Positions 19,347 through 39,269 are shown, counted from the first letter of the stretch. The stretch is 44,489 bases of DNA from Nitrospiraceae bacterium (GCA_011682535.1 JAACEL010000001.1:1-44489); one strand, 5' to 3'. A program made the numbers and translations. The notes: a model not told the origin generated them from the sequence alone.

Positions 19347-19348
19347 GC

Positions 19349-23972: not shown

Positions 23973-24133
23973 GCGTTGTCTCCTCTCGATCGCCGGATGT
24001 GGAGGCGCTAGAGAGGCCACCATTCCGCAGTCCCCAGATTCCGCATTCGCACACTCGTTCAAGGAAACCGGGCCCCAAGGAACCCCATTCTACACGACTC
24101 CTTGCTGCCTTGACATTGAGGCCCGTGCAACGT

Positions 24134-25526: not shown

Positions 25527-25786
25527 GCTCTTGTGCCAGCCGTCTGGCCAACGCCCTGTTCACAGATAGAGGCGCGGCTGACGATTTCGAAAAACCGTTC
25601 GAGCCGTCGTTCTTCTCGGGCTTCGAGCGGTTGGGTGACGAAGCCGGTGAGGGAGATGAACCGAACGTGCTTGCCTTGGGCGCACGCGCTGTGGCCGAGT
25701 GCGGTGGCGAGATGGGTCTTGCCGGCGCCGGGGTAGCCCATGAAAAGGATGTTCTCCAAGGTGTCAAGATCGCCGTCGCGCATCAC
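25523..25786 (-). mobile_element. istB: Relic of an IS21-family IstB helper ATPase gene, truncated at both ends
   Basis: The product LENILFMGYPGAGKTHLATALGHSACAQGKHVRFISLTGFVTQPLEAREERRLERF matches the IstB Walker-A region and the following helix. About 90 N-terminal residues and the Walker B/C-terminus are absent. No IstA gene or terminal repeats are visible. Confidence 0.65.
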
Positions 25787-26562
25787 GTGGCTGTGCCGGG
25801 GGCGCCGGCGAAGAGGGCGTCGAGGATAGCGCGCACTTCCTGAGTTTGCCGGTCCGTGCCGGTAAGTGGAGATTGTCCTTCGAGGTCGGCTTCGGCAATA
25901 TCGGGGTCGAGGGAGAGTGTGCCGAGGAGGGGGAGTCCGTCGAGGTAGGGGGTGATGCGGTTAATGTCGAGGCCGGGCGGGATTTTGTTGACGACGACGC
26001 CGAGCCGGGGGACGTGGATTTCGCCCGCGAGGCGGCGGATGGTCTGGGCGGTCTGGAGGCTGCGTTGGCCGGGTTCGACGACGATGATCATCACGGTGAC
26101 GGCTTGTGCGGTGGCCCGGCCGAGGTGTTCGATACCGGCTTCCATGTCGAGGATGACGACTTCGTCGGGGCGGAGAAGCAGGTGGGTTACGAGGGCTTTG
26201 AGTAGGGCGCTCTCGGGGCAAATGCAGCCGCTTCCGCCAGTGGACACGCCGCCGAGGGTCAGGAGGCGTACGCCGTTGACCTCGCGACTGAAGCGTTCGG
26301 GGAGATCGCGCACGTCGGGGTTGATTTTGAAGTAGGAACCGTACCCCTCCCGCGAGTCGGTGCGTTCTCGGATCAATTCGCGCATCTGGCTGATGGGCTT
26401 CGGGGCTTCGCCGGGCGCGAGACCCAGGGCGGACGCCAAGTTGGCATCGGGATCGGCATCAACGGCGATGACGGGGCGCCCTTCGTTGGCCAGTGTGCGC
26501 GCGAGCAGCGCGGCGAGCGTGGTTTTTCCCGTTCCGCCTTTGCCGGAGATAGCGATCTTCAT
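25783..26562 (-). CDS. cooC: CODH nickel-insertion accessory ATPase CooC
   Basis: MKIAISGKGGTGKTTLAALLA (deviant Walker A), VDADPDANL, and the metal-binding Cys-x-Cys motif GCICPES. Divergent from cooS. Confidence 0.9.
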   Translation of the reverse strand: MKIAISGKGGTGKTTLAALLARTLANEGRPVIAVDADPDANLASALGLAPGEAPKPISQMRELIRERTDSREGYGSYFKINPDVRDLPERFSREVNGVRLLTLGGVSTGGSGCICPESALLKALVTHLLLRPDEVVILDMEAGIEHLGRATAQAVTVMIIVVEPGQRSLQTAQTIRRLAGEIHVPRLGVVVNKIPPGLDINRITPYLDGLPLLGTLSLDPDIAEADLEGQSPLTGTDRQTQEVRAILDALFAGAPGTAT

Positions 26563-26837
26563 GTGCGTATCCTTTTTTGGGTTTCGTAGCGGAAACATGC
26601 GGAAGGGGCCGCCCATTCCCACCGGCGTCTCCCGCCCCTTTCGTCATCCTGGCGACGTTGCGTGTTGTCCGCTGTACGTTCCCTTCGTTACATGCTTTTC
26701 TTGACTGATAACAGTGTTCAACGCCGGCGTATCCGCGGCGGAGTGACACCATACCTTGTCCACGTAGGAGAAACCTAACGCGGAGAGGCAAACCACTTGC
26801 ATCAGGCAAGAGATCCTGGTGCGAAATCGCAATCAAC

Positions 26838-26866
26838 TTGACATGGGGTTGGCGCTAATGTACAGT
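26838..26866 (+). promoter_or_regulatory. Strong sigma-70-type promoter candidate for the cooS-acs operon
   Basis: TTGACA (26838-26843), 17-nt spacer, TACAGT (26861-26866). It implies a 5' UTR of about 235 nt before cooS. Confidence 0.6.
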
Positions 26867-27107: not shown

Positions 27108-29084
27108 GTGGTGTCGTCGAAGAAAGAGCGTAGCGTTGATCCGGCAGCCCAAGAGATTCTGGGTATCGCCGCGCAAGAGTCGCAGCAGGTGGCCTATGAC
27201 CGCTACGAGGCCATGCAGCCACAGTGTGGGTACGGGCAACTGGGCATCTGCTGCCACAACTGCAACATGGGGCCTTGCCGCGTCGACCCGTTCGGCGACG
27301 GTCCCCAGGAGGGCATCTGCGGAGCGTCCGCGGACGTGATTGTGGCGCGCAACCTGGCGCGGCGGTCTGCCGTGGGCTCCGCGGCCCATTCCGATCACGG
27401 TCGCGACATTGTGCACCTGCTTCTGTCCACCGCCCGAGGAGAGTCTCAGGGCTATAGCATCAAGGGTGTAGTGAAGCTGCGGAAGCTGGCCCGGGAATGG
27501 GGCATAGGGATCGAGGACGCCACGTCGGCGCAACTGGCGGAGAAGGTGGCCGAGGCGGCCTTGGCGGAGTTCGGCAAGCAGGAAGGCGAACTTCGCTTCG
27601 TCGAGCGGGCTCCCCAGAAGGTGCGCGAGCGGTGGGAGCAGATGGGGGTGACGCCGGGCGGCGTGGACCGCGACATCGTGGGCGTGTTGCACAGCACGAA
27701 CATGGGCGGCTCGAACGAGGCGTTACACCTCCTACGCAACTGCGTTCGCGCGGGTCTGGCCGACGGCTGGGGTGGCTCGATGATCGCCACGGAACTGAGC
27801 GATATCCTCCTGGGTGAGCCCCAACCTCTGGTATCCGAAGCTAACTTGGGCGTGTTGAAGGAAGACCATGTCAACATCCTCGTGCACGGTCACGAACCGG
27901 GCCTGTCCGACGCGCTTGTGACGGCGTCGCAGTCGCCGAAGGTGTTGGCGGCGTGCGAGAAAGCGGGGGCCAAGGGGCTCCAATTGGCCGGGATCTGCTG
28001 TACGGCCAACGAGATCCTGATGCGTCACGGCGTGCCCATCGCGGGGAATTTCCTGCACCAGGAGTTTGCCCTGGTGACTGGGGCCGTGGAGATGATGGTC
28101 GTCGACATCCAGTGCATTTTCCCCGCTCTCAAGGACTTGGCGAGGCACTACCACACCAAAGTGGTCAGCACGTCGCCCAAGGCCCATTTCGAGGGGTTCC
28201 AGCACATTGAGTTCGACGAGAGCAGAGCCCTCGACAGCGCCGAAGAGATCCTGCTGGCGGGCGTGGAGAACTTCGCGAACCGCGACCCGGAGAAGGTCCA
28301 CATTCCGTCCGACAAGTCCCCCCTCGTTGCGGGGTTCACGACCGAAAGCATCTTCGATCACCTGGGCGGTCGCTACCGCCCGTCCTATCGCCCGCTGAAC
28401 AACGGCATTATGGAGGGACGCTTGCGCGGCGTCGTGGGCGTCGTGGGGTGCAACACGGTCAAGCAGTGCCAGGACGAAGGCCATCTGGAGATGGTCAAGG
28501 AGCTTTTGCGGCACGATGTGCTCATCGTGCAGACCGGGTGCTCGGCCATTGCGTGCGGTAAGGCCGGCTTGCTCATGCCCGAAGCGGCGGACCTGTATGC
28601 CGGCCGGGGTCTCAAGGAGATCTGCGACGCAGTCGGTCTGCCGCCGTGTCTGCACCTTGGCTCGTGCGTGGACAACTCCCGCATCCTGACGGCGTGTATC
28701 GAAATCTGCCGCGAGGGCGGGTTGGGCGAGGACTTCGCGGACTTGCCGGTGGCCGGGGCCGCGCCCGAATGGATGAGCGACAAGGCCATCGCTATCGGGT
28801 TCTACGTGGTCGGTTCGGGCGTGTTCACCGTGACGGGCGACCCGTTGCCGGTGCTGGGCAGCCCGATGGTGAAGGAGTACCTGACCGATGGGATGGAGAA
28901 GGACTTCGGCGCTAAGTTCGCTTTCGAGAGTGACCCGGTCAAGGCGGCCCATCTCATCATCGACCATCTGGACAGCAAGCGCGAAGCTCTGCACCTTGAC
29001 TCCATGATGTACGAACCCCGCCCCGTCGAGACCGTCGGCCAACCGTTGCAATTGGAGGCCGCCGAGGCGGTCGCGGCCGGCTAG
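27108..29084 (+). CDS. cooS: Anaerobic Ni,Fe carbon-monoxide dehydrogenase catalytic subunit
   Basis: N-terminal cluster motif CGYGQLGICCHNCNMGPCRV...GICGASADVIVARN, plus CooS-wide similarity and length. The RBS AGGAGG at 27098-27103 favours GTG 27108 or 27111. The longest ORF starts at TTG 27066. Confidence 0.95.
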   Translation: MVSSKKERSVDPAAQEILGIAAQESQQVAYDRYEAMQPQCGYGQLGICCHNCNMGPCRVDPFGDGPQEGICGASADVIVARNLARRSAVGSAAHSDHGRDIVHLLLSTARGESQGYSIKGVVKLRKLAREWGIGIEDATSAQLAEKVAEAALAEFGKQEGELRFVERAPQKVRERWEQMGVTPGGVDRDIVGVLHSTNMGGSNEALHLLRNCVRAGLADGWGGSMIATELSDILLGEPQPLVSEANLGVLKEDHVNILVHGHEPGLSDALVTASQSPKVLAACEKAGAKGLQLAGICCTANEILMRHGVPIAGNFLHQEFALVTGAVEMMVVDIQCIFPALKDLARHYHTKVVSTSPKAHFEGFQHIEFDESRALDSAEEILLAGVENFANRDPEKVHIPSDKSPLVAGFTTESIFDHLGGRYRPSYRPLNNGIMEGRLRGVVGVVGCNTVKQCQDEGHLEMVKELLRHDVLIVQTGCSAIACGKAGLLMPEAADLYAGRGLKEICDAVGLPPCLHLGSCVDNSRILTACIEICREGGLGEDFADLPVAGAAPEWMSDKAIAIGFYVVGSGVFTVTGDPLPVLGSPMVKEYLTDGMEKDFGAKFAFESDPVKAAHLIIDHLDSKREALHLDSMMYEPRPVETVGQPLQLEAAEAVAAG

Positions 29085-29123
29085 CCGGTCGAGGGAACTA
29101 CGGGAACAAGCGAGGTCGGAATC

Positions 29124-29645
29124 GTGAAGCATATGCTCGTTGTCAACGTAAGGAAGTGCTTGGGGTGTAAATCGTGCGAGGTGGCGTGCGCCGTTGAGCA
29201 TTCGGAGTCTCGGGACTTGTTCACGGCTATTCAGGAAAAGCCCGCCCCGCGCACGCGAGTGCGCGTGGGCCAAGGCGAGGGGTTCGCCGTACCCCTGCAA
29301 TGCCGTCATTGCGAAGACGCGCCGTGCATCAAGATCTGCCCGACGGCCGCCCTGTATCGCGCCGATGCCGACAGCCCCGTGGTGTTGAACCAGGACCAAT
29401 GCATCGGCTGCAACTGGTGTGTGCTGGCGTGTCCGTTCGGCGTCATCTCGTTTGACGCCCAAGGCCGGACATTGCTCAAGTGCGACCAGTGCTTCGAGCG
29501 CGTTGAGCGCGGGGAACGTCCCGCGTGCGTCGAAGGCTGTCCTTCGGGCGCGTTGGCGTTCAAGACGGCCGACGAGGTGGTTGCCGGGAAACAGGCCGCT
29601 TCTTTGGTGCAAATTGAGGCCGGATTGGGCGGAGAGGACGCATGA
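29124..29645 (+). CDS. cooF: CooF-type 4x[4Fe-4S] ferredoxin
   Basis: [37 protein letters not shown] and CDQC...CVEGCP are the four cluster motifs of CooF/HycB-type proteins. GTG start with a GAGGT RBS. Confidence 0.9.
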
Positions 29646-32107
29646 GTGTAGTCACGCCGCCCGAGACAGACGCGGTCCTGGACGAGGTGCTTGGGCACTA
29701 CCCGGCCGAGCCGGCGTCGCTGATCTCCGTGTTGCAGGACGTGCAGGGGGCGTTGAACTACCTGCCGCGGGAAGCGCTCGAGCGGATATCCTCCACATTA
29801 GGCGTGCCACGCAACCAGTCCTACCACGTGGCGACGTTTTTCAAGGCATTCACCCTCGAGCCCCGTGGCCAGCACACGATCAAGGTATGCATGGGCACGG
29901 CGTGCCACGTGCGCGGCGCGCCGCGGATCCTCGAGGAGTTGTCGCGGCAACTCGAGATCGGGCCCGGCGAAACGTCGGCGGACGGCGAGTTTACGCTCGA
30001 GACGGTGAATTGTGTCGGGGCCTGCGCGCTGGGTCCGGTAGTGGTGGTGGACGAGCACTGCTACAAGGCGTCGCCCGCGACGGTGGGGAAGCTGATCGCA
30101 AACGCCCGGGAGGGGATTGTCGAGGGGCCTTCGGTGGTTTTTCCGGAGGATTTCGGCGCGAAACCGTGTGCGTGTTCCCGGCTCGATTCGGGGACGGTGA
30201 GCATCTCTGTGTGCGGGGGGACGGGCTGCCAGGCGTACGGATGCGAGGTGGTGGCCTCGGCCGTCGAAGAGGCGCTTGACACGCTGGGTGTCCGGGACCG
30301 CGTGGCGTTTTACAAAACGGGGTGCCACGGTTTTTGCGAGCGTGGACCCATCGCGGTGATTCGTCCAGAACACGTTTTTTATCAGCACGTTCGGCCCGAA
30401 GACGTGGCCGAAATCGTGACCAAGACGGTGGTGGGCGGCGAGGTGATCGACCGCTTGCTGTACCGGGACCCCATCGAGGACAAGCCCGTCGTCAAAGAGA
30501 GCGAGATCCCGTTCTATGCGGGTCAGCAGCGGCTGATCTTTGGGGACAACGGCCTCATCTCGCCCGATAGAATCGACGATTACCTCAAGCGGGGCGGGTA
30601 TGAGGGGTTGCGCAAAGCCCTGACGATGGAGCCCGAGGCCGTCATCGACGAGGTGACGCGGGCGGGATTGCGTGGGCGCGGAGGCGGCGGGTTCTTGACG
30701 GGCCGGAAATGGACGAGTTGCCGCAAGGCCCATGGCGAACCAAAATATGTGATTTGCAATGCGGACGAGGGCGATCCGGGTGCGTATATGGATCGCAGTC
30801 TGCTCGAGGGAAATCCGCACCGCGTACTCGAGGGGATGATCATCGGCGCCCACGCCATCGGGTCGAATGAAGGCTACGTGTACGTGCGCGACGAATATCC
30901 CCTGGCGGTCAAGAACATCAATGTGGCCATCGAACAGGCGCGCGAACGGGGTTTCCTGGGCGAGAACATCCTCGACAGCGGGTTCCGTTTCGACGTGCGG
31001 GTGGTGCGGGGTGGCGGCGCGTTCGTGTGCGGCGAATCGACGGCACTGATGACGTCGCTCGAGGGCCGGGCCGGGGAACCGCGGGCCAAGTACATCCACA
31101 CGGTCGATAGCGGCCTGTGGGGGAAACCTTCGAATCTGAACAACGTCGAGACGTGGGCCAACGTACCGTTGATCATCAGCCAGGGCGCCGAGCAGTATGC
31201 CAAAGTGGGCACGGATGGCTCGAAGGGCACCAAGATCTTCTCGCTGGTAGGGAAGATCGTCAATACCGGCCTGGTCGAAGTGCCCATGGGCGTGACGCTG
31301 CGCCATATCATATTTGACATCGGGGGCGGGATCCCCGGCGGCAGAGGTTTCAAGGCGGTCCAGACCGGCGGTCCTTCGGGCGGCTGCCTCCCGGAATCGC
31401 TGCTGGATCTCGAGGTGGACTTCGACGAACTGACCAAAGCGGGTTCGATGATGGGGTCGGGCGGGATGATCGTTTTAGACGAGGATTCGTGCATGGTCGA
31501 CGTGGCCAAGTACTTCCTCAACTTCCTGATGGAGGAGTCGTGCGGGAAGTGTGTGCCGTGCCGCGAGGGCGTGCGGCGGATGCACGACATCCTGGATCGA
31601 ATGACGAAAGGGGAAGGGCGCGAGGGTGACATCGAACTGCTCGAGGAGCTTTCGGAGGCCGTGATTGACGGGTCGTTGTGCGCGCTAGGCGGCTCGGCGC
31701 CGAATCCGGTGCTGAGCACGCTACGGTACTTCCGTGAGGAGTACGAGGCGCATATCAACGAGCAGCGGTGCCCGGCCGGTGCGTGTAAGGCGCTGATCCT
31801 CTACGTCATCGACGCCGAGAAATGTACGGGATGCCGGGCGTGCGCGAAGAAGTGTCCAGTGGACGCCATCACTGGCGAGCTTAAAGGGCCGCATGAGATC
31901 GATTTCTCGAAGTGCATTAAGTGCGGTATCTGCAAAGATACGTGCAAGTTCGATTCTGTGATTATCGACGTGCAAAAGGACGCCGGGCGGATTGAAAAGG
32001 CCGTGAAGGTGGCCGTGGCGGAGAAGAAGAAGGCGCTGGCAGCAAAGCCTAAAGCGAAGCCCAAAGCAAAAGCAAAGCCCAAAAGAAAGCCCAAGGCCGG
32101 GAAGTGA
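29642..32107 (+). CDS. Fused NuoE-like / HydB-NuoF-like NAD(P)H flavoprotein with a C-terminal 2x[4Fe-4S] domain and a Lys/Pro/Ala tail
   Basis: - NuoE 2Fe-2S: CMGTAC...CVGAC.
- Second thioredoxin-like 2Fe-2S: CGGTGC...CHGFC.
- FMN/NADH motifs: [13 protein letters not shown] and [15 protein letters not shown].
- N3 cluster: [10 protein letters not shown]...CALG.
- Ferredoxin motifs: [12 protein letters not shown] and [11 protein letters not shown].
- Tail: [27 protein letters not shown].
- ATGA overlap with cooF. Confidence 0.85.
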
Positions 32108-32148
32108 CCCGGCAAGAAGATAACGCAACCAGTAGGGAATGGTGGTAG

Positions 32149-32952
32149 GTGTCGGATCAGGCGAGTGAGAATAAGGAAATCCAGTTCACGCTGGACGGAC
32201 AGTCCGTCTACGCGCGGCCCGGCGAGACGGTGTTGGGCGTAGCGAAGCGGATGGGGATCGAGATTCCGGCCCTGTGTCACCATGACGCGGTTTCCCCGTA
32301 TGGGGCCTGCCGTTTGTGCGTGGTTGAAGTGTTCTGGGGCAAGCGCTCGAAACTGGTCACGTCGTGCATCTACACGCCGTGGGAGGGCGATGTCGTCGAG
32401 ACCGGCAGCGACCGAGTGTGTCGGACGCGCCGAATGGTGCTTTCGCTGCTGTTGGCGCGTTGCCCGGAAGTCGAAACGCTCCAGGACATGGCACGCGAAT
32501 ATGGCGCGGCCGCGCCGTTTGACACGGCGGAGGAGGATGGCAGCGAGCGGTGCATTCTGTGCGGTCTGTGCGTGCGCGTGTGCGACGAAGTGGTGGGCCA
32601 ACACGCCATCGGCCACGCGCATCGTGGCATGGAGCGGGCCATTTCCGCGCCGTTTGCGGACCGCTCCGACGACTGTATCGGGTGTGCCGCGTGCGTTTAT
32701 ATCTGCCCGACGGGGGCGTTGCATTATGAGGATGTCGACGGGCGGCGTACGATGGTGGAGCTTCAGACGGACGTGCCCCTTTTTCCCTGCCGGGTGTGCG
32801 GGGCGCATTTCGCGCCTGTGGAGCAGGTTGAACGGGTTCGCGAGTGTCTGAAACTCCCCGAGGCGCTCGCGGAGACGTGTCCGGACTGCCGAGGGCGTGA
32901 GATTAGAGGAATAATGGAAGAGGTCTTGGCCGTGCCGCGGTCGAAGGCCTAA
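32149..32952 (+). CDS. 2Fe-2S plus 2x[4Fe-4S] protein resembling the N-terminus of HydA/NuoG/HylA, with no catalytic domain
   Basis: IQFTLDGQSVYARPGETVL...LCHHD...GACRLCVVEV (plant-type 2Fe-2S fold as in NuoG/HydA). CILCGLCVRVC and CIGCAACVYICP. An extra C-terminal CRVC...CPDC pair. At 267 aa it has no H-cluster or molybdopterin region. Confidence 0.8.
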   Translation: MSDQASENKEIQFTLDGQSVYARPGETVLGVAKRMGIEIPALCHHDAVSPYGACRLCVVEVFWGKRSKLVTSCIYTPWEGDVVETGSDRVCRTRRMVLSLLLARCPEVETLQDMAREYGAAAPFDTAEEDGSERCILCGLCVRVCDEVVGQHAIGHAHRGMERAISAPFADRSDDCIGCAACVYICPTGALHYEDVDGRRTMVELQTDVPLFPCRVCGAHFAPVEQVERVRECLKLPEALAETCPDCRGREIRGIMEEVLAVPRSKA

Positions 32953-32986: not shown

Positions 32987-35167
32987 ATGAGTCGAGAAGT
33001 GATGTCGGCGGTAATCCGCGGCGCGAGAGGCTTTGTTCGGGAGGCCGAGGAGGCGCTCCAGGCCGCGCTTGAAGCCAAAGGGCCGGAGCAGGAAGTGGGC
33101 TTTCCGGGAACGGCGTTCTATTTGCCCATGGCGTGCGCCCTCATGGGTGTGGAAGCCAAGAAAGTGAAGGATCTGGAAGCCATCGTGGAACACTGCAAGT
33201 CTCTCGTCGGGATGGAGCCGACCGAGAAGATGTGGCTACCGTATCTGGGTCGTGGGCTGGACGGCGGCGTAGCGGCGCTATTGGCGCAGGAGGTAACCTG
33301 CGCCATTCGTTACCTGAACGAGGAGAAGATTGAGGCCGAACATACGGGCTTCATCTCCGACGCGATCCTGCGCGAACTGGGCATCCAGTTGGTGGATGGC
33401 CGCATGCCGGGCTTCGCTGCGATTCTCGGGCCTGCGCCGACGAACAAGATCGCCGTCGACACGGTGCGCGAACTCCAACAACGCAGCATACTCGCGTTCT
33501 TGCTGTGTAACACCGATGGCCGCTCCATGTACGACCAGCTTGTGGAAGAGGGCGTCGAAATGGGATGGAACACCTACATCGTTCCCGTCGGACGCGACAC
33601 GACCTCGGCCATCTACGTACTCAACTGGGCCATGCGGGGCGCGTTGACTTTCGGTGGCCACAAGAAGGGCGATTACGAAAGCTGCCTGAGGTACTGCCGC
33701 GAGCGCATCTTCGCGTTCGGCCTGACCTTCGGTCCGATTCCGGACGACTGGTACGCTGTGGGCGCGGGGGCCATCGTCATGGGCTTCCCGGTGATCTCCG
33801 ACCACGCTTCGACCCCCGAAGTGCGGCCCACGGGCGTGACGACCTATGAGGCTCTGATACGCGAAACCGACCACTCCAAGCTCGTGCCGAGGGCCATCGA
33901 GGTGCGTGGCGTGAAGGTCAAGGTCGAGGAAATCGATATCCCGGTGGCCTACGCGGCGGCCTTCGAGGGCGAGCGCGTGCGGCGCGAGGACATGCAGACC
34001 CAGTACGGCGGGAAGTACTCCAATGCGGTCGAGTTTCTGCGCAGCCGGGAATCCGACGAGGTGGAAGACGGCCGCGTCGAGGTGATCGGTCCGGATCTCG
34101 ATGAGGCGAGTCCGGACGTGTCGTTGGATCTTGGCATTCTCATCGAGGTGGCGGGACGCAAGATGCGGCCCGATTTCGAGGGTATCCTGGAGCGTCAGCT
34201 CCATCGCTATTTGAACAACGCCATGGGCGTGATGCACATTGCCCAGCGCGACCAACTCTGGTTGCGCGTCAGCAAGGACGCCTGCGAGGCCGGGTTCCGC
34301 CTCAAGCATCTGGGCACGATTCTGCACGCCAAGTTCCTGGAGGAGTACGGAGGAATCGTCGACAAAGTTCAGGTGACGGTCTACACGGAGGCCGACAAAG
34401 TGGCGCAGTTGCTCCAAGAAGCCGGTCCGGCGTTCGACGCGCGTGATGCCCGCGTCCGCGGCATGACGGACGAGTCCGTCGACACGTTCTATTCGTGCAC
34501 CATTTGTCAGTCATACGCGCCCAATCACGTGTGCGTCATCACCCCGGAGCGCCTGGGCTTGTGCGGCGCCTACAATTGGCTGGATGGCCAGGCGTCTCAC
34601 GAGATCAATCCCACCGGTCCGAACCAGCCCATCAAGAAGGGCCAACCGATCGATCCCAAGCGGGGTGAGTGGAAGGGCGTCAACGATTTCGTCTACGCGC
34701 ATTCGAACCGGGCCACGGAGCAGTTCTCGGCGTATTCGCTCATGGAGAACCCGATGACGTCGTGTGGGTGCTTCGAGGTCATCGTGGCGATCCTGCCCGA
34801 GTGCAACGGGGTGATCGGCGTAAGTCGTGAATATCAGGGCGAGACGCCCATCGGTATGCCTTTCAGCACCTTGGCGGGGTCCGTGGGCGGAGGGGCGCAG
34901 ACCCCTGGTTTTGTCGGCGTGGGCCGGCTGTATCTGAGTTCGCGGAAGTTTGTGTCCGCGGAAGGCGGGTTGCCGCGCTTGGTGTGGCTGCCCAAGGAAC
35001 TCAAGGAAGCGATTCGCCCTCAGCTCGAAGCGCGGGCGAAGGAGATGGGATTCGAGAACTTCGTGGACAAGATCGCGGACGAGACCATCGCCACGGACAG
35101 CGACGGCGTGATGGCCTTCCTGGAGAAAGTTGAACATCCGGCGTTTACCCTCGACCCGCTCATGTAG
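32987..35167 (+). CDS. acsB: CO-methylating acetyl-CoA synthase (ACS, A-cluster subunit)
   Basis: CTICQSYAPNHVCVITPERLGLCGA ([4Fe-4S] ligands) and TSCGCFE (the Cys-Gly-Cys Ni-Ni site). The 726-aa length is that of a bacterial AcsB. Confidence 0.95.
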   Translation: MSREVMSAVIRGARGFVREAEEALQAALEAKGPEQEVGFPGTAFYLPMACALMGVEAKKVKDLEAIVEHCKSLVGMEPTEKMWLPYLGRGLDGGVAALLAQEVTCAIRYLNEEKIEAEHTGFISDAILRELGIQLVDGRMPGFAAILGPAPTNKIAVDTVRELQQRSILAFLLCNTDGRSMYDQLVEEGVEMGWNTYIVPVGRDTTSAIYVLNWAMRGALTFGGHKKGDYESCLRYCRERIFAFGLTFGPIPDDWYAVGAGAIVMGFPVISDHASTPEVRPTGVTTYEALIRETDHSKLVPRAIEVRGVKVKVEEIDIPVAYAAAFEGERVRREDMQTQYGGKYSNAVEFLRSRESDEVEDGRVEVIGPDLDEASPDVSLDLGILIEVAGRKMRPDFEGILERQLHRYLNNAMGVMHIAQRDQLWLRVSKDACEAGFRLKHLGTILHAKFLEEYGGIVDKVQVTVYTEADKVAQLLQEAGPAFDARDARVRGMTDESVDTFYSCTICQSYAPNHVCVITPERLGLCGAYNWLDGQASHEINPTGPNQPIKKGQPIDPKRGEWKGVNDFVYAHSNRATEQFSAYSLMENPMTSCGCFEVIVAILPECNGVIGVSREYQGETPIGMPFSTLAGSVGGGAQTPGFVGVGRLYLSSRKFVSAEGGLPRLVWLPKELKEAIRPQLEARAKEMGFENFVDKIADETIATDSDGVMAFLEKVEHPAFTLDPLM

Positions 35168-35217: not shown

Positions 35218-36561
35218 ATGGCGCTATCGGGACTCGATATTTACAAACATCTGCCCAAGGAAAACTGTAAGGAGTGTGGCCTGGCCACATGTCTGGCGTT
35301 CGCGATGAAAGTGGCCGGCGGTCAGGCGACGCTGGACGCGTGTCCGCGGCTCGACGACGGCGCGAAAGCTGCCTTGGGCGAGGCCAGTGCGCCTCCGCAG
35401 CAATTGGTCACCATCGGTTCGGGCGACCATGCCGTCAAGATTGGGCAGGAAACGGTGCTGTTCCGTCACGATGACAAGTTCTACCACCCGTGCGCCGTGG
35501 CGATCTGCGTGGACGACACGCTGGACGGCGACGCGATGGGCGAGCGGTGCAAAGCCATCGGCGCGCTGTCGTTCGACCGAATGGGTACCACTTCGGCGGT
35601 CGGGTTGCTCGCCTTGCACAACACGTCGGGCGACGTCCAGCGCTTTGCTCAAGCCGCCAAGGCGGCCGCGGTGGCGTCGGACAAGCCCCTGGTGCTGATA
35701 TCACCTGACGCGGACGCGTTGCGCGCGGCAGGCGAGGCGACGGCCGATGGACGCCCGTTGCTTTGGATCAAGGATGCCGTCGAGAATGGAGACGCAGCCA
35801 TCGCGGTGGCCAAGGATCTCTCCCTGCCGCTTTGTCTTGAAGCGCCTGACTTCGATTCACTGGCGGCGCTGGCGGAGAAGGCCCGCGACGCCGGTCTCAA
35901 GGAGCTGGTGCTGTCGCCGGGACCGGTTGGCGCCGCCGAGGGACTGAGTTTCCTGAGCCAGAGCCGGCGTGCGGCCATCGAGAAGAAGTTCCGCCCCATG
36001 GGGTTCCCCGTGGCCATGGTGGCCATGGGCGAGGATCCTGTGGAAACGACCGTGGACGCATGTTGGTATACCCTGAAATACGCGGGTATCATCGTGACGA
36101 ACCTGTCCAGCCCCGAGCAGTTGCTCGCCGTGCTGACTACGCGCCAGGACATCTACACCAATCCCCAGGTCCCGGTGCAGGTTGAGCCGGGGCTGCACAC
36201 CATCGGCGATCCCGGCGCCGACGCGCCCGTGCTGGTCACCACCAACTTCGCCCTTTCGTACTACTCGGTGGAGTCGGAGGTCGAGTCTTCGCGCATTCCG
36301 GCCTACGTGCTGGCGGTGGACACGGAGGGCACGAGCGTGTTGACGGCGTGGGCCGCTGAGAAACTTACGGCGGCCACGATCACCGAAGCGTTGACTCAGT
36401 GTGGCGTGGGCGGCAAGATTGACCACAAGAAGCTCATTCTCCCCGGGCTTGTGGCCGTCCTGAGCGGGTCCGTTGCCGATGAATCGGGCTGGGAGATCCT
36501 CGTCGGGCCTCGGGAGGCCTCCGGCATTGTGTCTTATCTGAAGAACCAGTGGAAACCCTGA
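35218..36561 (+). CDS. acsC: Corrinoid iron-sulfur protein large subunit
   Basis: N-terminal LPKENCKECGLATCLAFAMKVAGGQATLDACP [4Fe-4S] motif. 447 aa. Position in the acs cluster. Confidence 0.92.
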   Translation: MALSGLDIYKHLPKENCKECGLATCLAFAMKVAGGQATLDACPRLDDGAKAALGEASAPPQQLVTIGSGDHAVKIGQETVLFRHDDKFYHPCAVAICVDDTLDGDAMGERCKAIGALSFDRMGTTSAVGLLALHNTSGDVQRFAQAAKAAAVASDKPLVLISPDADALRAAGEATADGRPLLWIKDAVENGDAAIAVAKDLSLPLCLEAPDFDSLAALAEKARDAGLKELVLSPGPVGAAEGLSFLSQSRRAAIEKKFRPMGFPVAMVAMGEDPVETTVDACWYTLKYAGIIVTNLSSPEQLLAVLTTRQDIYTNPQVPVQVEPGLHTIGDPGADAPVLVTTNFALSYYSVESEVESSRIPAYVLAVDTEGTSVLTAWAAEKLTAATITEALTQCGVGGKIDHKKLILPGLVAVLSGSVADESGWEILVGPREASGIVSYLKNQWKP

Positions 36562-38495
36562 ATGTGACGAATAGCGGCCAGGATAGGACGTGCACCGTAT
36601 CGTTTGCGCCGTCGGGTTCGAAGGCGGAAGTGCCGATTGGGGTCACTATTTTGGCCGCCGCGCGTGAAGCGGGCGTGTACGTGGAGAACCTGTGCGGCGG
36701 CGAAGGCGTGTGCGGTAAGTGCCGCGTTATTGTGCGTAGCGGCATCGTGCGGGGTGAGACCACCAACTACCTGACCCGTGAGGAGATCAAGGAAGGTTAC
36801 GTCCTGGCGTGCGAAGGCCGCGTGGGCGGCGATCTGCTGGTCGACGTGCCCCCTGAATCGCAGTTGTACGGCCGCGTTCGCGAGCCCGACATCGCCGAGT
36901 TGCGTCTGAAGCAGCGCACGGTTCTTGAACGGCAACCGGCGAAGCTCGATCCTCCCGTCAATAAGTACCATTTCACGGTGCCGCCGGCGACACTCGAGAA
37001 CAGCCGGGCCGACATGGAGCGGCTCGAGCATGAGTTGCGTAAGGTGAATGGGGGAGGCCACTACCAGGCGGGACTGAAGGTGGGGCAGCGGCTTCCCGGT
37101 GCGATCCGGGCGTCCAACGGCGAGGTGACGGTCACGGTGGCCCATCGTGGGGCGCTCAACGAGATCGTGGACGTTGTCGGCGGCGACCGGAGTAAGCCGA
37201 ACTTGGCGGTTGCGGTGGATGTGGGCACAACGTCGGTTATTGCCCATCTCGTGGAAGTTTCGACGGGACAGACCCTGGGTACGGACGCCAAGTACAACTC
37301 GCAGGCCGCCTACGGGGCGGATGTGTTGCGCCGCATCATCCATTGTACGGAACATCCCGATGGGCTGGCGCAACTGCACGCGATGGTGACGGACGACATC
37401 AACATCCTGATCCAGGAGTTGCTCAACAAGTTCCGGCTGAGCAAGAACTACGTTACCCAAGTCGTGATAGCGGGGAACACGACGATCTTGCATACGGTTC
37501 TCGGGCTGAATCCCGAGTGGATCCGGCGCGAGCCCTATGTGGGCGTGACCTATTCGCCGCCGCCGTTCCGCGCGGCGGAACTGGGCATCACGATCAGCCC
37601 GCGCGGGCTGGTCTACAGCATGCCGTGCGTCAGTTCTTTCGTGGGTGGCGACATCACGGCCGGCGTGCTGGCCACGGGGCTGCACGAGTCGGACGCGCCC
37701 CGCATGCTGATCGACATCGGCACGAACGGCGAGATTGTCATCGGCAACAAAGACTGGATGGTCTGTGCCAGTGCCTCGGCCGGACCCGCCTTCGAGGGCG
37801 GGGAAACGCGCGACGGCATGCGGGCCACGCGCGGCGCCATCGACCATCTCCGCGGTTGGCGCGTGGGCCATCCGTTCACCTTTTCGACCGTGGGCGACGA
37901 GGCTCCGTGTGGCCTGTGTGGCACTGCTTACGTGGACTTGCTGGTGCAGATGCTGCGTTTGGGCGTCATGGACAAGACGGGGCGCATTAACACAGATAAC
38001 GGCGTCGACCGCATTCGCAAGGGCGTGGATGACGTTCTGGAGTTTGTCGTGCTCGAAGCGGGCGAGAAGGGCGCGACGCGCCAACTGGCCATCACGCAGA
38101 ACGATATCGCCAATCTGCTGCGCGCCAAAGCCGCAGTGTACGCCGCTACGAAGGTGTTGCTCAATTCTCTGGGGCTTCAGATGTCGGACCTGAAGGAAAT
38201 ACTGGTGGCGGGCGCCTTCGGGAACTTCCTCGATCTGGAGAACGCCGTGGCGATTGGCCTATTGCCCGACGTGCCCGGCGAGCGGCTTCGATTCGTGGGC
38301 AACGCTTGCATCATCGGTGCGAAAATGGCCGCATTGAGCCGGGAACGCTATGACGAGGCACAACAAATCGCCAACGCCATGACGTATTTCGAACTGAGCA
38401 CCGACCCGACGTTCATGGAAGCGTTCACGTCGGCATGTTTTTTCCCCCACACGAACATCGAGGAGTTTCCCTCGGTCATGGCGACGATGTCATAG
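36549..38495 (+). CDS. acsV: Reductive activator of corrinoid enzymes (RACo): 2Fe-2S ferredoxin domain plus ASKHA ATPase
   Basis: LCGGEGVCGKCRVIV plant-type 2Fe-2S motif. ASKHA phosphate motifs VDVGTTSVIAH and IDIGTNGEIVIG. GTG 36549 overlaps acsC by 13 nt. GTG 36564 is an alternative start. Confidence 0.88.
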   Translation: METLNVTNSGQDRTCTVSFAPSGSKAEVPIGVTILAAAREAGVYVENLCGGEGVCGKCRVIVRSGIVRGETTNYLTREEIKEGYVLACEGRVGGDLLVDVPPESQLYGRVREPDIAELRLKQRTVLERQPAKLDPPVNKYHFTVPPATLENSRADMERLEHELRKVNGGGHYQAGLKVGQRLPGAIRASNGEVTVTVAHRGALNEIVDVVGGDRSKPNLAVAVDVGTTSVIAHLVEVSTGQTLGTDAKYNSQAAYGADVLRRIIHCTEHPDGLAQLHAMVTDDINILIQELLNKFRLSKNYVTQVVIAGNTTILHTVLGLNPEWIRREPYVGVTYSPPPFRAAELGITISPRGLVYSMPCVSSFVGGDITAGVLATGLHESDAPRMLIDIGTNGEIVIGNKDWMVCASASAGPAFEGGETRDGMRATRGAIDHLRGWRVGHPFTFSTVGDEAPCGLCGTAYVDLLVQMLRLGVMDKTGRINTDNGVDRIRKGVDDVLEFVVLEAGEKGATRQLAITQNDIANLLRAKAAVYAATKVLLNSLGLQMSDLKEILVAGAFGNFLDLENAVAIGLLPDVPGERLRFVGNACIIGAKMAALSRERYDEAQQIANAMTYFELSTDPTFMEAFTSACFFPHTNIEEFPSVMATMS

Positions 38496-38510: not shown

Positions 38511-39269
38511 ATGGCGTTTTTGGCAGCAGTAACTGGAAAAGGCGGCGTGGGCAAGACGACGTTCACGGCCGCTTTGGTGCGGCTCCTGATCGAGCGGGGT
38601 GTGCGGCCGGTTCTCGCGGTGGACGCGGATCCGAACAGCTCGCTGGGGCCGTTGCTGGGGCTTCCCCCCGCCACGACGATTAGCGATATCCGCCAGGAGT
38701 TGCTCGAAGAGAAGATGAACGTGACGGAGATCTCGAAGGAACGCATCCTCGAGATGAAGCTCGAAGACTGCATCCAGGAGGCGGACGGCTTCGATCTACT
38801 GACGATGGGACGGCCGGAGGGTCCCCATTGCTATTGCTACGTGAATAGCCTGTTGCGCGGAGCCATGGCGAAACTGGAGTCCAACTATCGGGCAACGGTG
38901 GTGGACAACGAAGCGGGCATGGAACACTTGTCACGCATGAACACGAGTCGCGTGGATTGCCTGGCCGTCGTGTGCGAGCCCACGGCGGTGAGCGCGCGTG
39001 CGGCGAGCCGGATCATGGACCTTGCGGGCTCGCTCCCCGTGGATGTGGGCCGCAAGGTGCTGGTGTGGAACAAGGTGGGACCGAAGGGCATTTCGGACAC
39101 GGCCCGCGGCATGCTATCGGAAGCCGCTTTCGACGACGTGCTCTCGCTGCCGTCGGACGATGCGATAGCGGAATTGTCGGTTGAAGAACGAAGTGTCATG
39201 GAAATCACGTTACCGGAGCCTTTTCGCGGGCTGTTGGATGCCTGCATGCCCGGGGCGCCAACCAAGTAG
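38511..39269 (+). CDS. acsF: CooC-family Ni-insertion ATPase embedded in the acs operon (AcsF-type)
   Basis: AAVTGKGGVGKTTFTAAL Walker A, VDADPNSSL, and the Cys-x-Cys motif PHCYCYVNS. Confidence 0.88.
   Translation: MAFLAAVTGKGGVGKTTFTAALVRLLIERGVRPVLAVDADPNSSLGPLLGLPPATTISDIRQELLEEKMNVTEISKERILEMKLEDCIQEADGFDLLTMGRPEGPHCYCYVNSLLRGAMAKLESNYRATVVDNEAGMEHLSRMNTSRVDCLAVVCEPTAVSARAASRIMDLAGSLPVDVGRKVLVWNKVGPKGISDTARGMLSEAAFDDVLSLPSDDAIAELSVEERSVMEITLPEPFRGLLDACMPGAPTK

What the first reader, a model, noticed from the sequence alone, without database searches (positions are those of the whole stretch)
27108..32952. A bifurcating-type NuoE/NuoF-HydA-like redox module is wedged between cooS/cooF and acsB
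**Seen in sequence.**
- cooS and cooF are followed, with an ATGA overlap, by an 821-aa fusion. It has a NuoE-like 2Fe-2S domain, a second thioredoxin-like 2Fe-2S domain, a NuoF FMN/NADH core and a 2x[4Fe-4S] domain.
- A 267-aa protein follows that carries only the N-terminal Fe-S part of HydA/NuoG, with no H-cluster or molybdopterin domain.

**Established knowledge.** This three-part composition is that of the HydABC/HylABC-type modules used for flavin-based electron bifurcation with hydrogenase or formate dehydrogenase partners.

**Inference.** Here the catalytic partner would be CODH or CODH/ACS. That suggests CO oxidation or CO2 reduction coupled simultaneously to NAD(P)(H) and ferredoxin. 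I do not know of a characterised example, but I cannot search.
Basis: partly seen in the sequence, partly recalled or inferred. Interest (0 to 1): 0.72.

Follow-up and report, generated by a model that had tools for sequence, protein, structure and literature searches.

The report
Bifurcating-type NADH module inside CODH/ACS operon
An NADH- and ferredoxin-linked "Bfu" electron-splitting module, of a kind already shown to bifurcate electrons in hydrogenases and aldehyde oxidoreductases, sits between the CO dehydrogenase and acetyl-CoA synthase genes of this bacterium and of relatives in several phyla, which suggests an untested, cheaper way to power CO2 fixation.

Summary
The operon runs cooS (27108-29084), cooF (29124-29645), an 821-aa NuoE+NuoF-type fusion (29642-32107) that overlaps cooF by ATGA, a 267-aa NuoG/HydA-N-terminal protein (32149-32952), then acsB-acsC-acsV-cooC-acsD-acsE.

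- **Family.** The two inserted proteins meet nearly all sequence criteria of the Bfu (HydABC-like) bifurcating family; only the SLBB domain falls below Pfam's cut-off. All cofactor cysteines and the diagnostic His704 site are present.
- **Closest solved enzyme.** This is the bifurcating aldehyde oxidoreductase WorABCSL (PDB 9MQX). BfuB is 60% identical to WorB. The 267-aa protein matches WorA end to end, including its Cys4 zinc finger and C-terminal helix. CooF matches WorS.
- **Conservation.** All ten related contigs whose gene context I looked up keep cooS-cooF-bfuC/B-bfuA-acsB. The proteins are 52-81% identical. Named members come from Nitrospiraceae, Armatimonadota, Lentisphaerae and Kiritimatiellota.
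- **Prior work.** A "Codh-Bfu/CodhABCSF" enzyme was predicted by Schut et al. 2022 and Feng et al. 2025 for monofunctional CODHs of Firmicutes. It has never been purified. I found no paper describing the version embedded in an acs operon.

Verdict: real, non-random, and a new variant of a predicted kind. Physical association and bifurcation are inferred, not shown.

The parts
25783..26622 (-). cooC-like Ni-insertion ATPase, divergent from cooS
   Evidence: PF01656 CbiA, 75 bits. In relatives cooC lies upstream of cooS on the same strand.
26838..26866 (+). sigma-70-like promoter candidate in the 440-bp gap upstream of cooS
   Evidence: TTGACA-17-TACAGT, 10 of 12 matches. This is a consensus match only; the number of such sites in the region equals the shuffle expectation.
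27108..29084 (+). cooS/acsA, Ni-CODH catalytic subunit
   Evidence: TIGR01702, 611 bits against a cut-off of 478; PF03063. GTG start behind AGGAGG. Called as 658 aa in the public record.
29124..29645 (+). cooF-like polyferredoxin (WorS/HycB3 homologue); proposed wire between CODH and BfuA
   Evidence: PF13247. PDB hits: 9mqx_E WorS at E=3.9e-26 over residues 1-156, and HycB3/HycB4 of HDCR.
29642..32107 (+). bfuCB fusion (821 aa): NuoE-like BfuC + BfuB
   Evidence: ATGA overlap with cooF.
29681..30103 (+). BfuC (NuoE-like) domain, residues 14-154; C1 [2Fe-2S] ligands C83/C88/C124/C128
   Evidence: PF01257 best stretch. The four Cys are invariant in 36 of 36 clusters.
30197..30466 (+). N-terminal thioredoxin-like [2Fe-2S] domain of BfuB (B5); C191/C196/C228/C232
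   Evidence: Second PF01257 stretch and NF041612. Cys conserved in 35-36 of 36 clusters. Aligns with the N-termini of WorB and HydB.
30569..31756 (+). NuoF-type FMN/NAD(H) core with the B1 [4Fe-4S] (C634/C637/C640/C680) and the B2/Zn site (C617, T655, H704, C710, C715)
   Evidence: TIGR01959 alignment 310-705, PF01512, PF10589. Site mapping onto 7t2r_B. Conservation. SLBB is only sub-threshold.
31802..31951 (+). C-terminal 2x[4Fe-4S] ferredoxin-like domain (B3, B4); proposed ferredoxin site
   Evidence: Fer4 x2 at residues 721-770. Eight Cys invariant in 36 of 36 clusters.
31967..32104 (+). Lys/Ala/Pro-rich basic tail, residues 776-821
   Evidence: Present only in the closest relatives; function unknown.
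32149..32952 (+). bfuA (267 aa), short Type-2 / WorA-like. It has the A1 [2Fe-2S], two [4Fe-4S], no His-ligated A3 cluster, a Cys4 zinc-finger motif (C214/C217/C244/C247) and a C-terminal helix
   Evidence: PF13510 + Fer4_7. 9mqx_A at E=1e-43 over residues 11-252. 16 invariant Cys in 44 homologues. AF2 helix 245-260 and Foldseek top hit 9mqx_A.
32987..35167 (+). acsB, acetyl-CoA synthase
   Evidence: NF040764, 988 bits.
35218..36561 (+). [quoted passage not shown]
   Evidence: NF003195, 509 bits.
36549..38495 (+). acsV/RACo, corrinoid reductive activase
   Evidence: RACo domains.
38511..39269 (+). cooC/acsF-like ATPase
   Evidence: PF01656.
39294..40274 (+). acsD, corrinoid Fe-S protein small subunit
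   Evidence: NF003376, 379 bits.
40310..41101 (+). acsE, methyltransferase
   Evidence: NF005719, 270 bits.
41522..42139 (+). DUF3786 protein; it follows acsE in two relatives as well
   Evidence: PF12654. Same position in L170 and L171.

Best explanation
The fusion protein and the 267-aa protein form a Bfu-family (HydABC-like) electron-bifurcating module. BfuC is fused to BfuB, and there is a short WorA-like BfuA. The module is plugged into the CODH of a bacterial CODH/ACS.

**Proposed wiring.** CooS C-cluster, then B and D clusters, then the CooF polyferredoxin (WorS homologue), then BfuA clusters A4-A2-A1, then the BfuB FMN/Fe-S core. From the core a hydride goes to or comes from NAD(H), and single electrons go to or come from ferredoxin through the C-terminal 2x[4Fe-4S] domain.

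**Net reaction.** 2 CO + 2 H2O + NAD+ + 2 Fd(ox) <-> 2 CO2 + NADH + 2 Fd(red) + 3 H+.

**Role in the Wood-Ljungdahl pathway.** In the reductive direction the module would let NADH supply half of the electrons for CO2 reduction, with the reaction pulled by CO consumption at AcsB. In the oxidative direction it would recover both NADH and reduced ferredoxin from the carbonyl group of acetyl-CoA.

**Shown:** gene order, domain and ligand content, homology to proven bifurcating enzymes, and conservation of the arrangement.
**Inferred:** physical complex, electron path, bifurcation, and physiological direction.
For: **1. Bfu membership at sequence level.**
- All the expected domains are found, though SLBB scores below Pfam's cut-off.
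- The ligand cysteines for clusters C1, B5, B1, B3 and B4 are invariant or nearly so (at least 35 of 36) in 36 homologue clusters.
- The B2/Zn site (C617/T655/H704/C710/C715) maps exactly onto C438/C476/H525/C531/C536 of the A. mobile NiFe-Bfu. Schut et al. report that this His is missing from only 8 of 1558 BfuB sequences and is absent from non-bifurcating homologues.

**2. Best solved homologues are all experimentally bifurcating enzymes.**
- WorB (9mqx_B): 806 bits, 60% identity.
- T. kivui HydB: 758 bits.
- A. mobile NiFe HydB: 754 bits.
- NfnB also matches.
- Non-bifurcating NuoF and FdsB score only 340-394 bits and cover only the core.

**3. BfuA is WorA-like.**
- It aligns with WorA end to end, including the Cys4 zinc finger.
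- 16 Cys are invariant in 44 homologues.
- A C-terminal helix is predicted, and the Foldseek top hit is 9mqx_A at E=2e-21.
- In WorABCSL this helix recruits WorS.
- CooF matches WorS at E=4e-26.

**4. Synteny.**
- 10 of 10 related contigs keep cooS-cooF-bfuC/B-bfuA-acsB-acsC-acsV-cooC-acsD.
- Six of them have the 4-bp cooF/bfu overlap.
- Some carry fhs and metF directly upstream.

**5. Different BfuB lineages occupy the same slot.** L170/L171 (unfused, 56% identical to the window) and L122 have BfuB cores whose nearest relatives are glutamate-synthase-linked, benzoyl-CoA-reductase (Bam)-type or pyruvate-oxidoreductase-linked modules. This argues for selection on the architecture.

**6. Published prediction.** An analogous Codh-Bfu/CodhABCSF was proposed by the group that characterised WorABCSL.
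Against: - No biochemical, proteomic or transcript data exist for any member. Gene adjacency does not prove a complex.
- The distance matrices of BfuB and CooS/AcsB are poorly correlated (r = 0.20 and -0.12), whereas CooS-AcsB gives 0.72. The Bfu core has therefore not strictly co-evolved with the CODH.
- At standard potentials CO (-520 mV) can reduce both NAD+ and ferredoxin without bifurcation. Schut et al. raise this point themselves.
- The SLBB domain scores below Pfam's cut-off (18.7 against 27 bits).
- The AF2 model of BfuA is only moderate: pLDDT 77, with the 4Fe-4S region below 50.
- Whether the CODH can bind CooF-Bfu and AcsB at the same time is unknown.
Confidence: 0.6

Rival explanations
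1. Non-bifurcating diaphorase. The module is a plain NAD(P)H:CODH oxidoreductase, like HoxEFU or the FdsBG part of NAD-dependent formate dehydrogenase. It would link CO/CO2 directly to the pyridine nucleotide without obligatory ferredoxin coupling.
For: CO at -520 mV can reduce NAD+ directly (potential table). The 267-aa protein's best NCBIfam hit is HoxU, and the NuoE part hits HoxE. CODH-FNOR clusters are listed among known CODH gene contexts.
Against: The HoxU and HoxE scores are far below their cut-offs (131.6 against 333; 139.5 against 224). The protein keeps the features Schut et al. tie to bifurcating members: the N-terminal B5 domain, the C-terminal B3/B4 domain and the conserved His. 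Non-bifurcating solved homologues score less than half as well and cover only the core.
Confidence: 0.2
2. Co-expressed but separate enzyme. BfuCBA is a stand-alone NADH:ferredoxin redox balancer, or it serves another Wood-Ljungdahl step such as methylene-THF reductase. It would be housed in the operon only for co-regulation.
For: Several relatives carry metF (MTHFR+DUF5981) and fhs just upstream. BfuB distances do not track CooS or AcsB. From my own knowledge, NuoF-like subunits are known in the A. woodii MTHFR (RnfC2).
Against: The window contig has no metF or fhs, yet it keeps the cooS-cooF-bfu-acsB core. The tight, often overlapping junction is with cooF. BfuA has the WorA-type adaptor, and CooF is a WorS homologue. 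Characterised Bfu enzymes receive third-substrate electrons through BfuA, and this BfuA has no catalytic domain of its own.
Confidence: 0.15
3. Fortuitous insertion with no functional relation to CODH/ACS.
For: None beyond the general mobility of Bfu modules. Relatives pair with pyruvate oxidoreductase, benzoyl-CoA reductase (Bam), a glutamate-synthase-domain protein, formate dehydrogenase or FeFe hydrogenase.
Against: The same arrangement occurs in 10 of 10 contigs, at 52-81% protein identity, in MAGs labelled as different phyla, and with different BfuB lineages in the same slot.
Confidence: 0.03

Closest known systems
WorABCSL, electron-bifurcating tungsten aldehyde oxidoreductase of Acetomicrobium mobile (PDB 9MQX; Feng et al. 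2025, PMC12318220)
   Same: It has a BfuBC core plus a short BfuA that lacks A3, carries a Cys4 zinc finger and ends in a C-terminal helix. A CooF-like polyferredoxin (WorS) wires a separate catalytic subunit to BfuA. The window's BfuB, BfuA and CooF each match the corresponding chain: 806 bits at 60% identity, E=1e-43 and E=4e-26.
   Different: The catalytic partner here is a Ni-CODH (CooS/AcsA) with AcsB downstream, not a tungstopterin WorL. BfuC is fused to BfuB. No biochemistry exists for this system.
Predicted Codh-Bfu / CodhABCSF (Schut et al. 2022, PMC9304861; Feng et al. 2025)
   Same: CooS + CooF + BfuABC in one gene cluster, with CO proposed as the third substrate. It is uncharacterised, like this one.
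   Different: The published cases are four Firmicutes sequences placed in BfuB clade 49, with the CODH genes lying between bfuB and bfuA, and no ACS is mentioned. Here the order is cooS-cooF-bfuCB-bfuA-acsB inside a Wood-Ljungdahl operon. The hosts are labelled Nitrospiraceae, Armatimonadota, Lentisphaerae and Kiritimatiellota. The nearest BfuB relatives are Wor-, Por- and Bam-type, which the paper places in clades 35, 44 and 45. I could not test clade placement directly against the Firmicutes sequences.
HydABC electron-bifurcating [FeFe] hydrogenases (T. maritima, A. woodii, T. kivui) and NiFe-HydABCSL
   Same: The BfuBC core is homologous, at 55% identity to A. mobile HydB and with the same cofactor ligands.
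   Different: BfuA has no H-cluster domain and no A5 domain, and there are no hydrogenase genes in the window.
Canonical bacterial CODH/ACS (Moorella thermoacetica AcsAB with AcsCDE)
   Same: cooS/acsA, acsB, acsC, acsD, acsE, the corrinoid activase acsV and cooC are all present and score as equivalogs.
   Different: From my own knowledge, the canonical enzyme exchanges electrons with free ferredoxin and has no CooF or Bfu genes between acsA and acsB.

Membership tests
Bfu (BfuABC / HydABC-like) bifurcating family, as defined by Schut et al. 2022 | BfuB has the Nuo51 FMN-binding domain (IPR011538 / PF01512) | tested here: met
   PF01512, 149.5 bits, residues 338-509.
Bfu (BfuABC / HydABC-like) bifurcating family, as defined by Schut et al. 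2022 | BfuB has the SLBB domain (IPR019554 / PF10531) | tested here: inconclusive
   Only 18.7 bits against a cut-off of 27 for residues 505-600. The region aligns without gaps to WorB and HydB, and relatives score weak hits.
Bfu (BfuABC / HydABC-like) bifurcating family, as defined by Schut et al. 2022 | BfuB has the Nuo51 [4Fe-4S] domain (IPR019575 / PF10589) | tested here: met
   PF10589, 117 bits. C634/C637/C640/C680 invariant.
Bfu (BfuABC / HydABC-like) bifurcating family, as defined by Schut et al. 2022 | BfuB has a C-terminal 2x[4Fe-4S] ferredoxin-type domain (IPR017896; clusters B3 and B4) | tested here: met
   Fer4 x2 at residues 721-770. Eight Cys invariant in 36 of 36 clusters.
Bfu (BfuABC / HydABC-like) bifurcating family, as defined by Schut et al. 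2022 | The conserved His/Cys B2 (or Zn) site, reported in virtually all BfuB sequences and absent from non-bifurcating homologues | tested here: met
   C617, T655, H704, C710 and C715 align with C438, C476, H525, C531 and C536 of 7t2r_B. His is present in 36 of 36 clusters; residue 655 is Thr or Cys in 35 of 36.
Bfu (BfuABC / HydABC-like) bifurcating family, as defined by Schut et al. 2022 | BfuC is a NuoE-like [2Fe-2S] subunit (IPR002023 / PF01257) | tested here: met
   PF01257 at residues 14-154, fused to BfuB. Four Cys invariant. In L170 and L171 it is a separate gene.
Bfu (BfuABC / HydABC-like) bifurcating family, as defined by Schut et al. 2022 | BfuA has at least a 2Fe-2S and a 4Fe-4S ferredoxin-type domain | tested here: met
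   PF13510 + Fer4_7. 16 invariant Cys.
Bfu (BfuABC / HydABC-like) bifurcating family, as defined by Schut et al. 2022 | Obligately coupled reduction of NAD+ and ferredoxin by a third substrate | not testable with these tools
   Requires enzyme assays.
Type-2 Bfu with WorA-type adaptor (WorABCSL architecture) | BfuA lacks clusters A3 and A5, and has a Cys4 zinc finger followed by a C-terminal alpha-helix | tested here: met
   There is a single Cys where the His-Cys3 motif would be (LLLARCPEVETL). C214/C217/C244/C247 are invariant. Full-length alignment to 9mqx_A. Helix 245-260 in the AF2 model and Foldseek top hit 9mqx_A.
Type-2 Bfu with WorA-type adaptor (WorABCSL architecture) | A WorS-type polyferredoxin is encoded alongside | tested here: met
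   CooF against 9mqx_E at E=3.9e-26 over residues 1-156. Adjacent gene with ATGA overlap.
Type-2 Bfu with WorA-type adaptor (WorABCSL architecture) | Physical contact between the BfuA helix and the polyferredoxin | not testable with these tools
   No multimer prediction was available.
Published Codh-Bfu / CodhABCSF prediction | CooS, CooF and BfuABC in one gene cluster | tested here: met
   conserved in 10 of 10 contigs.
Published Codh-Bfu / CodhABCSF prediction | CODH genes sandwiched between bfuB and bfuA; BfuB in clade 49; Firmicutes only | tested here: not met
   The gene order is cooS-cooF-bfuCB-bfuA. The hosts are not Firmicutes. Clade placement was judged only indirectly, from neighbours and PDB hits.
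HoxEFU diaphorase of bidirectional [NiFe] hydrogenase | Equivalog-level match to HoxE and HoxU, and hoxYH nearby | tested here: not met
   HoxU 131.6 against 333; HoxE 139.5 against 224. No hydrogenase genes in the window.
Respiratory complex I N-module (NuoEFG) | Equivalog-level NuoF and NuoG, and nuoA-N genes nearby | tested here: not met
   NuoF 467.5 against 558.65; NuoG 84.7 against 470. No nuo membrane-subunit genes on the contig.

The most novel reading that the evidence does not exclude
A confurcating CODH/ACS. In these Nitrospirota, Armatimonadota, Lentisphaerota, Kiritimatiellota and related lineages, the carbonyl branch of the Wood-Ljungdahl pathway would be driven by NADH plus reduced ferredoxin together, through a CooF-BfuA-BfuBC wire. 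That would halve the low-potential ferredoxin needed per CO2 reduced. In reverse, it would conserve the energy of acetyl-CoA oxidation as both NADH and reduced ferredoxin. This would be a previously unrecognised energy-saving mode of an ancient carbon-fixation pathway.
Probability: 0.35. Interest if true: 0.8.

Novelty: new variant of a known kind. Interest (0 to 1): 0.6.

Why it matters
The CO2/CO step (E0' about -520 mV) is the most reducing step of the Wood-Ljungdahl pathway. It is normally paid for entirely with reduced ferredoxin, which is itself expensive to make.

A Bfu module wired to the ACS-associated CODH would let NADH carry half of that load. By the Nernst equation this is feasible only if CO is kept very low, for example by channelling it to AcsB. 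That would change energy budgets for acetogenic or acetate-oxidising members of poorly known phyla.

It would also add a physiologically central member to the Bfu family, whose CODH branch is so far only predicted. The clade offers defined targets for expression: a five-gene core, cooS-cooF-bfuC/B-bfuA(-acsB).

Tried and rejected
- **Truncated database scans.** The GTDB species-representative scan and the metagenome scan used the fusion as query. The 160 loci returned were mostly pyruvate-oxidoreductase-, benzoyl-CoA-reductase (Bam)-, glutamate-synthase-, hydrogenase- or formate-dehydrogenase-linked relatives. None of the 80 GTDB loci, and two of the 80 metagenome loci (plus a possible third, L165, with cooC and cooF only), were CODH-linked. 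They served as an outgroup census, not as a census of the clade.
- **ORF caller.** My greedy longest-ORF caller mis-called genes in high-GC loci by picking antisense ORFs. Context labels therefore came from tblastn.
- **HoxEFU diaphorase.** Considered because HoxU was the top NCBIfam hit. Rejected: sub-threshold scores and no hydrogenase genes.
- **Complex I N-module.** Rejected: sub-threshold scores and no nuo genes.
- **Coupling to MetF.** Considered because metF lies upstream in some relatives. Disfavoured because the window lacks metF and the conserved junction is with cooF.
- **Co-divergence test.** The Mantel-like correlation between Bfu and CODH proteins was weak, so I do not claim co-evolution.
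- **Structure model.** The AF2 model of BfuA was only moderately confident, and Foldseek TM-scores were low (0.40-0.42) despite a top hit to WorA.
- **Firmicutes Codh-Bfu sequences.** I could not obtain them, so the claim of a separate origin is indirect.
- **Literature.** Searches for Bfu together with Wood-Ljungdahl and acetyl-CoA synthase returned nothing. The closest published hints are a COG-level co-occurrence and the remark "nuoEF close to CODH/ACS" for a MAG of candidate phylum NPL-UPA2.

Full report
**Observation.** The window is a complete 44,489-bp contig of a MAG deposited as "Nitrospiraceae bacterium"; the fusion protein is NIA12454.1. A single plus-strand gene string runs from a 440-bp intergenic region that contains a sigma-70-like site (26838-26866).

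| Gene | Coordinates | Evidence |
|---|---|---|
| cooS/acsA | 27108-29084 | TIGR01702, 611 bits against a cut-off of 478 |
| cooF-like | 29124-29645 | Fer4_11 |
| 821-aa fusion ORF | 29642-32107 | domains listed below |
| 267-aa ORF | 32149-32952 | domains listed below |
| acsB | 32987-35167 | NF040764, 988 bits |
| acsC | 35218-36561 | NF003195, 509 bits |
| acsV/RACo | 36549-38495 | RACo domains |
| cooC | 38511-39269 | PF01656 |
| acsD | 39294-40274 | NF003376, 379 bits |
| acsE | 40310-41101 | NF005719, 270 bits |
| DUF3786 | 41522-42139 | PF12654 |

The cooF stop and the fusion's ATG overlap as ATGA. The other junctions are 34-50 bp. Terminator-like sites in the scanned region are no more frequent than in shuffled sequence.

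**The two inserted proteins.** Pfam and NCBIfam resolve the 821-aa protein into five parts:
- a NuoE-like [2Fe-2S] domain (residues 14-154);
- a second thioredoxin-like [2Fe-2S] domain (about 186-275);
- a NuoF-type FMN/NAD(H) core with its [4Fe-4S] (310-705);
- a 2x[4Fe-4S] ferredoxin domain (721-770);
- a 46-residue Lys/Ala/Pro-rich tail.

The 267-aa protein has a plant-type [2Fe-2S] domain and one 2x[4Fe-4S] domain. It then has a CxxC...CxxC motif and a terminal helix. The scores for genuine NuoF, NuoG, HoxE and HoxU all fall below NCBI's equivalog cut-offs. There are no nuo or hox genes anywhere on the contig. It is therefore neither a complex I N-module nor a Hox diaphorase.

**Family assignment.** Schut et al. 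2022 (PMC9304861) define the Bfu family by a BfuBC core plus a BfuA with at least a 2Fe-2S and a 4Fe-4S domain. The core comprises the Nuo51 FMN domain, SLBB, the Nuo51 4Fe-4S domain, a C-terminal ferredoxin domain and a NuoE-like BfuC. They also single out a His/Cys site (B2, or Zn in later structures) found in virtually all BfuB sequences and not in non-bifurcating homologues. My tests gave these results:
- All domains are present. SLBB is the exception, scoring sub-threshold (18.7 against 27 bits), although that region aligns gap-free with WorB and HydB.
- C617/T655/H704/C710/C715 map exactly onto C438/C476/H525/C531/C536 of the A. mobile NiFe-Bfu.
- Across 36 homologue clusters, every ligand cysteine of clusters C1, B5, B1, B3 and B4, and the His, is invariant or nearly so, at 35 of 36 or better.
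- In the PDB, the best matches to the BfuB part are proven bifurcating enzymes: WorB 9MQX (806 bits, 60% identity), T. kivui HydB (758), A. mobile NiFe-HydB (754, 55.5% identity), plus A. woodii HydB and NfnB.
- Non-bifurcating NuoF and FdsB reach only 340-394 bits and align only to the core.

**The adaptor.**
- The 267-aa protein's best PDB match is WorA (9mqx_A, 247 aa), aligned from residue 11 to 252 and including the CxxC...CxxC motif.
- Feng et al. 2025 (PMC12318220) show that WorA lacks clusters A3 and A5, carries a Cys4 zinc finger, and ends in a helix that recruits the polyferredoxin WorS.
- The window protein has only one Cys where the His-Cys3 A3 motif would lie.
- Its 16 Cys are invariant in 44 homologues: four for the 2Fe-2S cluster, eight for the two 4Fe-4S clusters and four for the zinc finger.
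- AlphaFold2 predicts a confident terminal helix at residues 245-260. The model overall is moderate, with pLDDT 77 and a poor 4Fe-4S region. Foldseek ranks 9mqx_A first, at E=2e-21.
- The CooF-like protein matches WorS (9mqx_E) at E=3.9e-26 over its whole length. It also matches the filament-forming HycB3/HycB4 subunits of the hydrogen-dependent CO2 reductase.

All three non-catalytic parts of the WorABCSL "plug and wire" therefore have counterparts here, and CooS takes the place of WorL.

**Conservation and context.**
- I looked up the gene neighbourhoods of eight BfuCB homologues (61-76% identical over the full protein) and two BfuA homologues (54-64% identical). All ten show cooS-cooF-bfuC/B-bfuA-acsB, continuing into acsC-acsV-cooC-acsD-acsE wherever the contig extends far enough.
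- The MAGs are labelled Armatimonadota, Lentisphaerae and Kiritimatiellota, or are unclassified. Close BfuA homologues are also deposited under Sumerlaeia, Planctomycetota and Thermodesulfobacteriota, but I did not check their context.
- Six of the ten have the 4-bp cooF/bfu overlap.
- Three have fhs and metF immediately upstream.
- In two (L170, L171) bfuC and bfuB are separate genes.
- At least 36 BfuCB clusters and at least 120 BfuA clusters (clustered at 90% identity) lie in this similarity range.

More distant relatives attach the same BfuC/BfuB/short-BfuA trio to other partners:
- four-subunit pyruvate oxidoreductase (Por-Bfu);
- BamBCDEF (Bam-Bfu, the benzoyl-CoA reductase type);
- FeFe hydrogenase;
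- formate-dehydrogenase-like proteins;
- a 526-aa Glu_synthase-domain protein;
- an OFOR-FAD fusion.

The module is evidently a portable plug, which is the picture Schut et al. drew.

**How many recruitments.**
- In a neighbour-joining tree without support values, the window and L081-L085 form one clade. Its sister (L063) is a 2-oxoacid:ferredoxin oxidoreductase (OFOR)-linked Bfu with a CooF-like subunit.
- The BfuB cores of L170/L171 and of L122 (cooF-bfuCB-bfuA-acsB) are closer to GltS-, Bam- or Por-type cores than to the window clade.
- L139 is a CooS-CooF...BfuCBA cluster without acsB.
- Pairwise-distance correlations fit core exchange: BfuB-BfuC 0.83 and CooS-AcsB 0.72, but BfuB-CooS 0.20 and BfuB-AcsB -0.12.

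I read this as persistence of the architecture despite turnover of the BfuBC core. That argues for selection on function. It also means I cannot claim co-evolution of the core with the CODH.

**Mechanism (inferred).** By analogy with WorABCSL, electrons would pass from the C-cluster through the B and D clusters of CooS to CooF, then to BfuA clusters A4-A2-A1, then to the FMN/B1/B5/C1 site of BfuCB. From there a hydride goes to NAD+ and two single electrons leave through B3/B4 to ferredoxin. The process would be reversible.

Using the potentials tabulated by Schut et al.:

| Couple | Potential |
|---|---|
| CO2/CO | -520 mV |
| NAD+/NADH, physiological | about -280 mV |
| Ferredoxin, physiological | about -500 mV |

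The NADH-plus-ferredoxin pair averages about -390 mV. By the Nernst equation (about 30 mV per decade for two electrons), CO2 reduction from that pair becomes feasible when CO/CO2 is held near 1e-4 or below. That is plausible if CO is channelled to AcsB. This step is my inference. In the oxidative direction the same logic is the one Schut et al. give for scavenging very low CO.

**Comparison with the literature.**
- Codh-Bfu was predicted from four Firmicutes gene clusters, with the CODH genes between bfuB and bfuA and BfuB in clade 49. It was renamed CodhABCSF in 2025 and is explicitly stated to be unpurified.
- Inoue et al. 2019 noted at COG level that NuoE, NuoF and NuoG-like proteins co-occur with Wood-Ljungdahl-context CODHs.
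- A paper on a MAG of candidate phylum NPL-UPA2 remarked that nuoEF lies near its CODH/ACS cluster.
- A 2026 CODH genomic-context study does not mention NADH, Nuo or bifurcation.
- No paper in the searchable library combines Bfu with the Wood-Ljungdahl pathway and acetyl-CoA synthase.

The concept of a bifurcating CODH is therefore known but untested. Its insertion between acsA and acsB, in phyla outside the Firmicutes, with a fused BfuCB and BfuB cores nearest to the Wor, Por and Bam types, appears undescribed.

**Verdict.** This is a real, conserved feature. It meets the sequence definition of the Bfu family except for a sub-threshold SLBB domain, and it has Type-2, WorA-like architecture. 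It is best classed as a new variant of the predicted Codh-Bfu kind. I give 0.6 to the full mechanistic statement. Functional linkage to CODH is more likely than that, and true bifurcation somewhat less. I rate interest at 0.6. A specialist would not be shocked that a Bfu module meets a CODH. A Bfu-wired CODH/ACS would nevertheless bear directly on the energetics of the Wood-Ljungdahl pathway, and it is readily testable.

Noticed in passing
window 31967-32104 (residues 776-821 of the fusion): A Lys/Ala/Pro-rich, histone-H1-like basic tail (…[29 protein letters not shown]). Comparable 73-119-aa tails occur only in the closest relatives (P0002, P0005, P0007, P0015, P0016). Most other clade members end 8 residues after the last Cys motif, and three end after 16-17. 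Function unknown.
   Followed up: partly
L023, L036, L041, L052, L064, L065, L086, L087, L108, L127, L133, L137, L138 (e.g. L086 4268-5848): Many relatives pair BfuC/BfuB/short BfuA with a 526-aa protein carrying only the PF01645 Glu_synthase (GltB FMN) domain. "Glutamate synthase" is not mentioned in the main text of the Bfu family paper, so this may be an undescribed Bfu partner class.
   Followed up: partly
L047 12394-17533 (also L074, L089): A BfuA fused to a glycine-cleavage H-protein (lipoyl carrier) domain, followed by a 1170-aa fusion of POR_N + TPP_C + Fer4_20 + Pyr_redox_2. This is an unusual Bfu-linked 2-oxoacid oxidoreductase / FAD-oxidoreductase chimera.
   Followed up: no
window 25783-26622 (- strand): A cooC-like ATPase is transcribed divergently from cooS. 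In relatives it lies upstream of cooS on the same strand, and in three of them fhs and metF (MTHFR+DUF5981) precede it.
   Followed up: partly
L170 7607-9999; L171 6286-8669: In these two contigs the same operon slot holds unfused bfuC and bfuB. Their BfuB is only 56% identical to the window's and is nearer to GltS-, Bam- and Por-type cores, while BfuA, CooF, CooS and AcsB are as similar as in the fused clade. This suggests exchange of the BfuBC core within a conserved operon.
   Followed up: partly
L139 1505-9234: CooS-CooF, then an unannotated 193-aa ORF, then a SpoIIE/PP2C phosphatase, then BfuC-BfuB-BfuA, with no acsB following. This is a looser, possibly monofunctional, CODH-Bfu cluster from a metagenome.
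   Followed up: partly
L081 8823-9540: A nucleotidyltransferase/HEPN pair (a toxin-antitoxin-like module) is inserted between acsB and acsC in the closest relative of the window operon.
   Followed up: no
window 20247-24062 (- strand): A 1271-aa ORF with only faint DUF5696/DUF6259 matches. It is otherwise unannotated and lies between the purine-biosynthesis genes (purM/purL/purQ-like, 15332-20143) and the CODH operon.
   Followed up: no
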